Assembly: GCF_964355755.1 (NCBI RefSeq)
Contig: NC_092675.1
Coordinates: 20,246,912 to 20,310,911, forward strand
Origin: Antedon mediterranea
Lineage: Eukaryota > Animalia > Echinodermata
DNA length: 64,000 bases
Direction: 5' to 3'
Both the position numbers and the translations under genes were made by a program. Positions 4,015 through 57,782 of this stretch are shown one piece after another (position 1 is the first letter of the stretch; every line of letters starts with the position of its first letter). The notes beneath the pieces were generated by a model. That model made no database searches, was not told the DNA's origin, and worked only from the letters and a program-made list of their open reading frames with translations.

Positions 4015-7000
4015 ATGAATTTATACAAATGTGAACATTGTGGAGATAAACTTCAAACACACCAAGAGTTTAAATTTCTTCAATGTCAAGTGAACGTTGT
4101 CAGACTTTGTCTAGATTTAAATAGTGGATGGAGCAGACATTTGGGAGAGTACACAGAGGAGACGCCATATGAATGTGTACATTGTGGAAAGAAATTCAAC
4201 CAGAATGACGATTTGAAAAAACATTTGAAAATGCACACAGAAAAGACACCATATGAATGTGAACACTGTAGGAAGAAATTCAACCAAAATGACGATCTGA
4301 AAAGACATATGAGAATACACACAGGAGAGAAACCATATGAATGTGAACATTGTGGGAAGAAATTCAACCAGAATGACGATCTGAAAAAACATATGAGAAT
4401 ACACACAGAAGAGACACCATATGAATGTGAACATTGTGGGAAAAAATTCAACCAGAATGACGATCTGAAAAAACATATGAGAATACACACAGGAGAGACA
4501 CGATATGAATGTGAACATTGTGGGAAGAAATTCAACCGGAATGACAGTTTGAAAAAACATATGAGAATGCACACAGGAGAGAAACCATATGAATGTGAAC
4601 ATTGTGGGAAGAAATTCAACCGGAATGACAGTTTGAAAAAACATATGAGAATGCACACAGGAGAGAAACCATATGAATGTGAACATTGTGGGAAGAAATT
4701 CAACCAGAATGACGATCTGAAAAAACATTTAAAAATGCACAAAGAAGAGACACCATATGAATGTGAACATTGTGGGAAGAAATTTAACCGGAATGACGAT
4801 TTGAAAAAACATATGAGAATGCACACAGAAGAGACACGATATGAATGTGAACATTGTGGGAAGAAATTCAACCGGAATGACGATTTGAAAAAACATATGA
4901 GAATGCACAGAGAAGAGACACCATATGAATGTGAACATTGTGGGAAGAAATTCAACCAGAATGACGATTTAAAAAAACATTTGAAAATGCACACAGAAGA
5001 GACACTTTATGAATGTGAACATTGTGGGAAGAAATTCAAAGACAATGATGATCTGAAAAAACATTTGAGAATGCACACAGGAGAGAAACCATATGAATGT
5101 GAACATTGTGGGAAGAAATTCAACCACAATGATGATCTGAAAAAACATTTGAGAATGCACACAGGAGAGAAACCATATGAATGTGAACATTGTGGGAAGA
5201 AATTCAACCAGAATGACAGTTTGAAAAAACGTATGAGAATACACACAGGAGAGAAACCATATGAATGTGAACATTGTGGGAAGAAATTCAAAGACAATGA
5301 TGATCTGAAAAAAAATTTGAGAATGCACACAGGAGAGAAACCATATGAATGTGAACATTGTGGGAAGAAATTCAACCAGAATGACAGTTTGAAAAAACGT
5401 ATGAGAATACACACAGGAGAGAAACCATATGAATGTGAACATTGTGGGAAGAAATTCAACCAGAATGACGATCTGAAAAAACATTTAAAAATGCACAAAG
5501 AAGAGACACCATATGAATGTGAACATTGTGGGAAGAAATTTAACCGGAATGACGATTTGAAAAAACATATGAGAATGCACACAGAAGAGACACGATATGA
5601 ATGTGAACATTGTGGGAAGAAATTCAACCGGAATGACGATTTGAAAAAACATATGAGAATGCACAGAGAAGAGACACCATATGAATGTGAACATTGTGGG
5701 AAGAAATTCAACCAGAATGACGATTTGAAAAAACATTTGAGAATGCACAAAGAAGAGACACCATATGAATGTGAACATTGTGGGACGAAATTCAACCAGA
5801 ATGATGATTTGAAAAAACACTTGAGAATGCACACAGAAGAGACACCATATGAATGTGAACATTGTGGGAAGAGATTCAAAGACAATGATGATCTGAAAAA
5901 ACATTTGAAAATGCACACAGAAGAGACACCATATGAATGTGAACATTGTGGGAAGAAATTTAAACATAAAGGGAATTTGAGAAGCCATTTGCGAATACAC
6001 ACAGGAGAGACACCATATGAATGTGAACATTGTGGGAAGAAATTCAAAGACAATGATGATCTGAAAAAACATTGGAGAATGCACACAGAAGAGACACCAT
6101 ATGAATGTGAACATTGTAAGAAGAAATTTAAACATAAAGTGAATTTGAGAAGCCATTTGCGAATGCACACAGAAGAGACACCATATGAATGTGAACATTG
6201 TAAGAAGAAATTTAAACATAAAGGGAATTTGGGAAGCCATTTGCGAATACACACAGGAGAGACACCATATGAATGTGAACATTGTGGAAAGAAATTCAAC
6301 CAGAATGGGATTTTGAGAAGACATATGAGAATACACACAGGAGAGAAACCATATGAATGTGAACATTGTGGGAAGAAATTCAACCGTATTGGGAGTTTAA
6401 AAATTCATTTCAGAATACACACAGGAGAGACACCATATGAATGTGAACATTGTGGGAAGAAATTCAACCATATTGGGAGTTTGAAAAGACATATGAGAAT
6501 ACACACAGGAGAGAAACCATATGAATGTGAACATTGTGGGAAGAAATTCAACCAGATTGGGAATTTGAAAAAACATTGGAGAATGCACACAGAAGAGACA
6601 CCATATGAATGTGAACATTGTAAGAAGAAATTTAAACATAAAGGGAATTTGAGAAGCCATTTGCGAATACACACAGGAGAGAAACCATATGAATGTGAAC
6701 ATTGTAAGAAGAAATTTAAACATAAAGGGAATTTGAGAAGCCATTTGCGAATACACACAGGAGAGAAACCATATGAATGTGAACATTGTAAGAAGAAATT
6801 TAAACATAAAGGGAATTTGGGAAGCCATTTGCGAATACACACAGGAGAGACACCATATGAATGTGAACATTGTGGAAAGAAATTCAACCAGAATAGGATT
6901 TTGAGAAGCCATTTGCGAATACACACAGCAGAGACACCATATAAATGTGATTGTGGAAAGAAATTTAAATATAAAGGGAATTTTAGAAGCCATTTGCGAA

Positions 7001-7443
7001 TACACACAGAAGAGACACCATATGAATGTGAACAATGTGGGAAGAAATTTAAATATAAAAGTAATTTGAAAAGACATATGAGAATACACACAGGAGAGAA
7101 ACCATATGAATGTGAACATTGTGGGAAGAAATTCCATCAGAATGACAATCTGAAAAACCATATGAGAATACACACAGGAGAGACACCATATGAGTGTAAA
7201 CATTGTGGAAAGAAATTCAACCAGATTGGGAGTTTGAAAACTCATTTAAGAATACACACAGGAGAGACACCATATGAATGTGAACATTGTAAGAAGAAAT
7301 TTAAACATAAAGGAAATTTGAGAAGTCATTTGCGAATACACACAGGAGAGACACCATATGAATGTGAACATTGTGGGAAGAAATTTAAATATAAAAGTAA
7401 TTTGAAAAGACATGAGAATACACACAGGAGAGACACCATTTGA
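4015..7443 (+). CDS. Tandem C2H2 zinc-finger protein, paralog A (1142 aa, ~39 finger units)
   Basis: Uninterrupted ORF of [10 protein letters not shown]...HxxxH units with TGEKP/TEETP linkers; it ends after a 2-bp deletion at ~7413. Confidence 0.85.
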
Positions 7444-56700: not shown

Positions 56701-57782
56701 AGAGACACTTGTATGAATGTGAACATTGTGAAAAGAAATTAAAAGACATTGATAATCTGAAAAAACATTTGAGAATGCACACAGAAGAGACATCATATGA
56801 ATGTGAACATTGTGGGAAGAAATTCAACCAGAATGACAATCTTAAAAAAGATTTGAAAATACACACAGGAGAGACACCATATGAATGTAATCATTGTGAG
56901 AAGAAATTCAACCAGAATGACAATCTTAAAAAAGATTTGAAAATACACACAGGAGAGACACCATATGATTGTGAACATTGTTGAAAGAAATTCAACCAGA
57001 ATGACTATCTGAAAAAAAGATTTAAAAATACACACAGGAGAGAGACCATAATATGAATGTGAACATTGTGGAAAGAAATTCAAGCAGAAATGACATTTGA
57101 GAAGACATTTGAAAATACACACAGGAGAGACACCATATGAATGTGAACATAAAAAGAAATTCAAACTTCAAAGCAATCTGAAAATACATTTGAGAATACA
57201 TATAACACACAGGAGAGACAGCATATGAATGTGAATTGTGGAAAGAAATTCAATTACAAATGGAGTTTAAGAAGACATTGGAGAATACACACAGGAGAGA
57301 CACCATATGAATGTGAACATTGTAAAAAGAAATTCAACCAGCTTGGGAATTTGAGAAGACATTTGAGAATACACACAGGAGAGACACCATATGAATGTGA
57401 ACATTGTAAAAAGAAATTCAACTTGATTGGGAATTTGGGAAGACATTTGAGAATACACACAGGAGAGACACCATATGAATGTGAACATTGTAAAAAGAAA
57501 TTCAACTTGATTGGGAATTTGAGAAGACATTTGAGAATACACACAGGAGAGACACCATATGAATATGAACATTGTAAAAAGAAATTCAACCAGATTGGGA
57601 ATTTGAGAAGACATTTTAGAATACACACAGGAGAGACACCATATGAATGTGAACATTGTGGGAAGAAATTCAAACAGAATGGGCACTTAAAAGCTCAAAT
57701 GAGAGTGCACACAGGAAAAAAATCAAAAAATCATAATGGCAGGAGAAGACATTTGAGAGTGCACACAGGAGAGACATCTTAA
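53795..57782 (+). pseudogene. Degenerate continuation of finger array C, including an open 17-finger stretch at 53843-55309
   Basis: Largely colinear with B 33553-37049 and shares many of its lesions. Confidence 0.8.

What the first reader, a model, noticed from the sequence alone, without database searches (positions are those of the whole stretch)
4015..57782. ZNF genes built as an in-frame prefix plus a large silent reservoir of fingers
Seen: in all three paralogs the array is fully open for the first ~39/16/33 units. It then continues for ~45-70 more 84-bp units that cannot be translated from the ATG. These tails contain recognition helices absent from all three coding prefixes (QIESLKT, RNEYLKK, LIGNLRR, DKSNLRK), while unit backbones stay nearly identical throughout. 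Established: homogenised ZF minisatellites such as PRDM9's diversify by unequal exchange and conversion. Inference: the tail may act as an in-cis library of silent specificity cassettes recruited into the coding part, analogous to pseudogene cassettes in antigenic variation. This would allow rapid retargeting, possibly against the many transposons here. The 5'-intact/3'-decayed polarity suggests selection on the prefix.
Basis: partly seen in the sequence, partly recalled or inferred. Interest (0 to 1): 0.85.

Follow-up and report, generated by a model that had tools for sequence, protein, structure and literature searches.

The report
Orphan PRDM9-type zinc-finger repeat genes
Three recently duplicated, very long zinc-finger repeats, likely from a feather star and closest to its PRDM9-like protein but with no methylase domain nearby, have broken back halves that decay like ordinary dead DNA, so those halves are likely leftovers that swap units passively and not a maintained spare-parts library.

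Summary
Three 84-bp C2H2 arrays (108, 61, 80 units) are open for 38, 15 and 32 fingers, then run on for 70, 46 and 48 units out of frame; the four named helices are tail-only. The lesions are real: they recur in colinear units of paralogs B and C and travel with linked markers. The arrays lie in a 19-27 kb tandem duplication (flanks 0.8-2.3% apart). Their fingers are closest, of 239 proteins compared, to a crinoid PRDM9-like protein (97% backbone identity), yet no PR/SET exon is in the window. The adaptive-reservoir reading fails its own test: B and C tails differ at the flank rate (1.4% vs 1.1%), with a neutral spectrum (8 silent, 32 missense, 2 stops) and no excess at contact codons (6 of 42, 6 expected); 66 of 164 tail units are broken. 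Blocks do move between tail and prefix, but they carry lesions too and direction is unresolved. Selection on the prefix is suggested, not shown; expression is untested. Zinc-finger-only PRDM9 copies and frameshift-shortened arrays are published; the array length here is unusual.

The parts
3917..3932 (+). Pyrimidine-rich splice acceptor of copy A (AG 3931-3932); equivalents end at 31365 (B) and 50784 (C)
   Evidence: Only acceptor-like site found across each exon and array; aligned; use untested
3933..4167 (+). Leader: 25 open codons, in-frame TGA 4009-4011 shared by A, B, C, ATG 4015, one degenerate 144-bp finger unit
   Evidence: no homologue at E<=0.001 among 1.84 billion representatives; no candidate
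4015..7443 (+). ORF A, 1142 aa, 38 in-frame fingers (34 intact, 3 lacking a His ligand, 1 with a 3-bp deletion)
7357..13226 (+). Tail A, 70 units (14 frameshift/stop, 4 core missense, 2 in-frame deletions)
5512..12141 (+). Recent internal duplication in A: 5512-8700 (A18-A54) and 8701-12141 (A55-A94, three extra units), lesions copied too
   Evidence: 38 unit pairs, 8 differences (0.3%)
12058..13058 (+). Older 3'-terminal block A94-A104 homologous to in-frame A20-A36
   Evidence: 10 pairs, 14 differences in 837 nt
13615..13620 (+). AATAAA after array A (also 37381 in B, 58115 in C)
   Evidence: use untested
31448..32950 (+). ORF B, 500 aa, 15 intact fingers
32693..33350 (+). Block B15-B22: tail-like units at the prefix edge, absent at this place in C; B15-16 in frame, B17, 18, 21, 22 broken
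   Evidence: Nearest neighbours B59/C78, B41/C54, B48, B49; B/C colinearity starts at B23/C34
32861..37002 (+). Tail B, 46 units (16 frameshift/stop, 8 core missense, 1 in-frame insertion)
33351..33553 (+). 203-bp insertion in unit B22, a 94% copy of 26467-26671
50867..53794 (+). ORF C, 975 aa, 32 intact fingers, built largely by short-period duplications
53708..57725 (+). Tail C, 48 units (14 frameshift/stop, 10 core missense, 2 in-frame indels), colinear with tail B
1174..64000 (+). Tandem segmental duplication: units from about 1174, 26786, 43434, and a fourth starting near 63885
   Evidence: Self-BLAST with arrays masked; flank divergence 0.8-2.3%

Best explanation
These are three recent tandem copies of a zinc-finger exon with no PR/SET domain in the window, whose 84-bp units likely descend from the crinoid PRDM9-type finger pool; frameshifts cut each reading frame, the units behind the cut decay at the neutral rate, and the in-frame front part is likely translated and likely under weak selection to stay intact. 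Shown: the duplication, the lesions and their sharing between copies, block duplications inside arrays, neutral rate and spectrum of recent tail changes, shorter nearest-neighbour distances toward the 5' end. Inferred: unequal crossing-over and conversion copy blocks of units without regard to frame, so the tail is a passive donor and recipient that hands over lesions as readily as new helices; the helix diversity is old and inherited from a coding ancestor; the tail would be 3' UTR of a last exon, and the products would be 15-38-finger DNA-binding proteins without a known effector domain.
For: Finger backbone identity to the window consensus: Antedon mediterranea PR/SET-zinc-finger protein P0001 0.97, Anneissia P0002 0.83, Anneissia finger-only P0036 0.79, next 0.72, median 0.58 over 239 of 240 fetched proteins with 4 or more fingers. 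P0001 fingers are as close to window fingers (0.77) as these are to each other (0.73-0.76). tblastn of 7 proteins, PR/SET parts included, finds no such exon in the masked window, which holds two complete repeat units. Neutral tails; tail-only variants 5 silent, 44 missense, 3 nonsense, 16 of 52 at core residues. Old diversity has the same signature in prefix and tail (contact pN about 2x overall pS; backbone pN/pS 0.42 and 0.46), and 26 of 35 missense helix variants are shared by both. 5'-biased turnover: nearest-neighbour distance rises along each array (Spearman 0.21, 0.35, 0.52). For selection on the prefix: 81 of 85 fingers intact vs 93 of 164; prefix-only variants 4 silent: 8 missense vs 5: 47 in tails (p 0.055); core or stop hits 0 of 22 between prefixes vs 10 of 42 between tails (p 0.012, counts read lists, pairs not independent).
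Against: Expression is untested. The leader has no protein homologue and no similarity to the P0001 or P0002 pre-array spacer, so direct descent from the PRDM9 exon is not shown; Anneissia has a finger-only gene of related type (P0036). The silent fraction between prefixes (5 of 22) is no higher than between tails (8 of 42) (p 0.75). Allowing for the prefix being defined as lesion-free, its clean length is not clearly beyond chance (p 0.05-0.23, with my estimate of 18-24 independent lesions). A's prefix has three His-ligand losses; B's prefix seems to have been shortened after the B/C split. An in-frame TGA right before the ATG and an out-of-frame ATG at 3999 fit a broken exon. The three predicted proteins are not in the 15-billion collection. 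Few crinoid proteins were seen (3), and proteins under 259 aa were not searched.
Confidence: 0.5

Rival explanations
1. All three copies are dead orphan exons. The exon once spliced to upstream coding exons, the TGA at 4009 killed it, and the clean 5' stretch reflects recent amplification of a few units at that end.
For: Acceptor in frame with the array but followed by a shared stop; leader without homologue; prefix silent fraction neutral-like; ascertainment-aware test not significant; C's prefix is mostly short-period duplicates; orphan zinc-finger exons occur among salmonid PRDM9 copies (PMC11703093, passages).
Against: A's 38-unit prefix is heterogeneous (mean 12 nt between units) yet has no null lesion; core damage is rarer in prefixes; private silent variants per unit are no fewer in prefixes (4 in 85 vs 5 in 164), which pure youth would not give.
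Confidence: 0.3
2. The tail is a selected, silent library whose helices are converted into the coding prefix for fast retargeting.
For: 36 of 69 helices tail-only; tails hold more helix types per unit (42 vs 33 in 85 units); 93 of 164 tail units are still intact; in-frame A20-A36 match the 3'-terminal A94-A104, and B16 is 2 nt from B59/C78.
Against: Neutral rate and spectrum, no contact-site excess; 44 of 164 tail units null; A's newest large event copied prefix units behind a lesion; B15-B22 imported lesions; no boundary structure or donor cassette organisation seen.
Confidence: 0.08
3. The exons are alternative last exons of a PR/SET gene upstream of the window, joined through another acceptor after the TGA.
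For: Terminal-exon anatomy and PRDM9-type fingers; sequence upstream of the window was not available.
Against: The only strong acceptor leads into an in-frame stop; introns of at least 30 and 50 kb would be needed for B and C; leader unlike the P0001 spacer.
Confidence: 0.08
4. Lesions or the long arrays are assembly or long-read errors.
Against: The extra A is present in 10 of 10 units with a linked Lys-to-Met change and 3 of 88 without (p 2e-11); stops and deletions recur in colinear B and C units; A's duplicate has 8 differences and 3 extra units; one contig of run X2 crosses the upstream TGA unchanged (X2 may be the source sample).
Confidence: 0.04

Closest known systems
PRDM9 zinc-finger minisatellite (here Antedon mediterranea XP_071964787.1 / P0001 and Anneissia japonica XP_033096562.1 / P0002; both named otherwise by their sources, PRDM9-like is my reading)
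   Same: 84-bp homogenised C2H2 units in one terminal exon, near-identical backbone, diversity raised at contact positions
   Different: No PR/SET exon in 64 kb; 61-108 units against 11 in P0001 and 3-17 (full-length) or 2-20 (truncated) in cnidarians (bioRxiv 10.64898/2026.09.07.749791, section 5 part 1); contact share of diversity 0.34-0.54 vs 0.62 in P0001; different leader and 3' end
Salmonid PRDM9-alpha paralogs (PMC11703093, passages)
   Same: Tandem segmental duplicates; three copies lost KRAB, SSXRD and SET but kept the zinc-finger exon; some arrays shortened by frameshift or nonsense changes
   Different: There orthology is established by phylogeny and synteny; here only by finger likeness; here a row of at least three finger-only copies with very long tails
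Ruminant PRDM7 (PMC4874674, passages) and human ZNF252 (PMC2865497, passages)
   Same: 84-base repeats with many disruptive changes after the first unit; eleven complete or degenerate fingers left in a 3' UTR after the stop
   Different: Far fewer units; no sign reported in the passages read of continuing block exchange with the coding part
Borrelia vls silent cassettes (PMC3828179, passages; PMC11499132, start of abstract)
   Same: Unexpressed near-copies next to an expressed frame, homogenised by conversion
   Different: vls cassettes keep frame, show diversifying selection in variable regions and donate one way; these tails do none of that in the tests run

Membership tests
PRDM9 (full-length) | PR/SET domain in the gene | tested here: not met
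   No tblastn hit to PR/SET parts of 6 SET-bearing proteins in the array-masked window; DNA outside the window not available
PRDM9 (full-length) | KRAB and SSXRD exons | tested here: not met
   No hit to the N-termini of P0001/P0002. Pfam itself finds no KRAB or SSXRD in the P0001 N-terminus; that likeness is recalled
PRDM9 (full-length) | Homogenised 84-bp zinc-finger minisatellite in one exon | tested here: met
PRDM9 (full-length) | Diversity concentrated at positions -1, 2, 3, 6 | tested here: inconclusive
   Share 0.34-0.54 vs 0.62 for P0001 and 0.33 for P0002; contact pN about 2x pS; recent tail changes not enriched
PRDM9-derived zinc-finger-only paralog | Descent from the species' PRDM9 exon (DNA homology, synteny) | not testable with these tools
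   No genome held; only protein likeness; leader unlike the PRDM9-like spacer
Silent-cassette variation system (vls type) | Donors keep reading frame | tested here: not met
   44 of 164 tail units frameshifted or with stop
Silent-cassette variation system (vls type) | Diversifying selection at variable sites, conserved scaffold in donors | tested here: not met
   6 of 42 B/C tail changes at contact codons (6.0 expected), 10 of 42 hit core residues or make stops
Silent-cassette variation system (vls type) | One-way donor-to-expression-site transfer | tested here: inconclusive
   Shared blocks exist; one haplotype cannot give direction
Expressed tandem C2H2 gene with remnant fingers in the 3' UTR | Transcript covering prefix and tail, translated prefix | not testable with these tools
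   Only contigs of four runs on the 5' flank could be laid; signals for splicing and polyadenylation are sequence matches only

The most novel reading that the evidence does not exclude
The roughly 250 PRDM9-type fingers in these methylase-less copies are a standing pool that feeds new fingers into the crinoid's real PRDM9 by ectopic conversion, or the finger-only proteins compete with PRDM9 for recombination sites. The reservoir would then serve PRDM9 in trans, without needing selection on the tails themselves. Not excluded: P0001 fingers fall inside the window's finger pool by amino-acid identity. Not shown: no P0001 finger is identical to a window finger (23-26 of 28).
Probability: 0.12. 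Interest if true: 0.85.

Novelty: new variant of a known kind. Interest (0 to 1): 0.42.

Why it matters
As it stands: an invertebrate example of PRDM9-type finger arrays cut loose from their methylase and grown to 61-108 units, with paralogs close enough to separate neutral decay from turnover; it gives a clean negative test of the silent-reservoir idea. If such arrays exchange fingers with PRDM9 itself, they would offer a source for the fast renewal of PRDM9 alleles, an open question in hotspot evolution, and one testable with long-read haplotypes.

Tried and rejected
No whole genome is held, so PRDM9 DNA of this species and the region upstream of the window were not seen. Sequencing-run search: 13 runs listed, no RNA holder listed; no evidence either way. 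Shares of words (best 0.53) not used. Contigs of 4 runs laid on the 5' flank of A only: all cover it end to end, no joint at the acceptor among the 15 of 17 joints shown; contigs cannot show expression. Leader searches were blank (apart from two weak Cys-pair matches). Search for long relatives (612-1950 aa, best 120 of 7231 listed) showed no crinoid protein. Comparison of P0001 with solved structures was not done, so its PRDM9 label rests on Pfam PR/SET hits, architecture and recall. The N-terminal alignment used the wrong frame; redone. One search counted the frameshifted unit B60 as substitutions; redone. The insertion in B22 was considered as an intron and rejected: no pyrimidine-rich acceptor. 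Slippage rescue at the A run was considered and left: lesions are of many kinds. Earlier scan notes: nothing for this genome or sequence; one unrelated note. Literature: searches showed no paper on crinoid finger arrays or a zinc-finger cassette reservoir in their listings; the library lacks most subscription papers, and no supplements were read (the cnidarian preprint's are closed and may list further truncated forms; it defined truncated copies as SET-bearing).

Full report
Observation. Six-frame translation finds C2H2 motifs only on the plus strand, in three arrays; Tandem Repeats Finder gives an 84-bp period. Splitting into units gives 108 (A), 61 (B) and 80 (C) units after a degenerate 144-bp leader unit. 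The frames from the ATGs at 4015, 31448 and 50867 hold 38, 15 and 32 fingers and end in a short frameshifted peptide. Tails have 70, 46 and 48 units. Of 85 prefix units 81 are intact; of 164 tail units 93 are intact, 44 have a frameshift or stop, 22 a core missense change and 5 an in-frame indel.

The lesions are real. The extra A in the A run is in 10 of 10 units with a linked Lys-to-Met change and in 3 of 88 others. B and C tails are colinear and share lesions unit for unit.

Context. With arrays masked, the window is a tandem duplication with units starting near 1174, 26786, 43434 and 63885; flanks differ by 0.8-2.3%. Each array is preceded by a strong splice acceptor, 25 open codons, a shared in-frame TGA and then the ATG. 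AATAAA follows each array. The leader has no homologue. Contigs of four public runs cover A's 5' flank; one from a second organism label spans 3451-4017 with about 37 substitutions and several indels, so the locus seems older than one species (weak, contigs only).

Identity. The top two of 721 hits for the start of B (120 listed) are crinoid proteins with a PR/SET domain and a finger array. The Antedon mediterranea protein matches the window's finger backbone at 0.97, against 0.83 and 0.79 for two Anneissia proteins and a median of 0.58 over 239 proteins. Its fingers are as close to the window's as those are to one another. So the window is likely crinoid, probably Antedon or near (inference). 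I read P0001 as PRDM9-like from its architecture; its sources call it uncharacterized, and Pfam finds no KRAB or SSXRD in its N-terminus, so that part is recalled. No PR/SET or N-terminal exon is found in the window, and the leader does not resemble the P0001 spacer. The fingers are PRDM9-type; descent from the PRDM9 exon is inferred, not shown.

How the arrays changed. A has a 3.2-kb duplication (38 pairs, 8 differences) that copied 22 in-frame units together with the lesion block, which explains most of the 29 of 70 tail units within 1 nt of its prefix. An older block at A's 3' end matches in-frame A20-A36 (14 of 837 nt); either copy could be the source. C's prefix grew by short-period duplication. 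In B, units 15-22 sit in front of the lesion shared with C and resemble tail units: two are in frame, four are broken. Parsimony reads this as a tail-to-front copy that shortened the protein. Nearest-neighbour distance rises toward the 3' end in all three arrays: turnover is more recent at the 5' end, strongly in B and C, weakly in A.

Test of the reservoir idea. In vls cassettes, frame is kept and variable regions show diversifying selection (PMC3828179, passages). Here 35 colinear B/C tail pairs differ at 1.44% against 1.12% in flanks (p 0.29); 8 changes are silent, 32 missense, 2 stops, matching the 17-24% silent share expected without selection; 6 of 42 are at contact codons, 6.0 expected. 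Pairs were chosen from the unit alignment; unpaired units were left out. Tail-only variants are 5 silent of 52. Older diversity does show raised change at contact positions and a conserved backbone, equally in prefix and tail, as expected if it was inherited from a coding ancestor. The tail is therefore a passive remnant. It can still donate units, because any minisatellite does.

Is the prefix selected? Mixed. For: core damage 2 of 62 distinct prefix units vs 22 of 84 tail-only units (one of the 22 is the frameshifted B60); silent: missense 4: 8 vs 5: 47 (p 0.055); 0 of 22 vs 10 of 42 core or stop hits between paralogs (p 0.012). Against: silent share between prefixes 5 of 22, no higher than in tails; rotation and ascertainment-aware tests give p 0.05-0.23; recent amplification explains part of the cleanliness. 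Expression was not testable. I put a translated, weakly selected prefix at 0.5 and a wholly dead exon at 0.3; both share the neutral tail.

Known cases. Salmonid PRDM9 copies include tandem duplicates, three that kept only the finger exon, and arrays shortened by frameshifts (PMC11703093, passages). Ruminant PRDM7 has 84-base repeats with many stops (PMC4874674, passages); tarsier PRDM9 has compensating indels (PMC5048142, passages); human ZNF252 has eleven fingers in its 3' UTR (PMC2865497, passages). Cnidarian copies have 2-20 fingers (bioRxiv 10.64898/2026.09.07.749791, abstract, section 5 part 1 and passages). PMC2794550 (passages) notes PRDM9 conservation in echinoderms. What differs here is the length of the arrays and a row of finger-only copies.

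Verdict. Observation confirmed; the adaptive in-cis library is not supported; passive exchange is. New variant of a known kind, interest 0.42. The boldest open reading, that these arrays feed fingers to PRDM9 or compete with it, I put at 0.12.

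Noticed in passing
window 33351-33553 and 26467-26671: A 203-bp piece inside finger B22 is a 94% copy of DNA 6.7 kb upstream and replaces about 27 bp of the unit; looks like a templated repair insertion.
   Followed up: partly
window 3016-3179, 28090-28838, 49141-49178: A 14-bp minisatellite upstream of each gene has 11.7, 53.5 and 2.7 copies, a second fast-changing repeat in the same duplication unit.
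   Followed up: no
window 3515-3642: Short element of very high copy number in all four runs laid, about 40-700 times the depth of neighbouring bins; MITE-like, about 300 bp before the acceptor.
   Followed up: partly
window 4052-4163: Contigs about 90% alike match this leader segment but not the DNA before it, hinting at more distant related loci elsewhere in the genome.
   Followed up: no
window 3962-3987: A contig from the second organism label lacks 3 and 21 bases here, both multiples of three, inside the 25 open codons before the TGA; a weak hint that this stretch was once coding.
   Followed up: no
window 45896-47790, minus strand: Several overlapping open frames of 97-171 codons that read like a decayed transposon gene (recalled likeness); four were scanned and had no Pfam match at cut-off.
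   Followed up: partly
protein P0001: The Antedon mediterranea PRDM9-like protein has two accession numbers for one sequence, possibly a duplicated gene.
   Followed up: no
window 22872-23842 and 19710-21523: A 194-bp tandem repeat and a set of inverted repeats lie between copies A and B.
   Followed up: no
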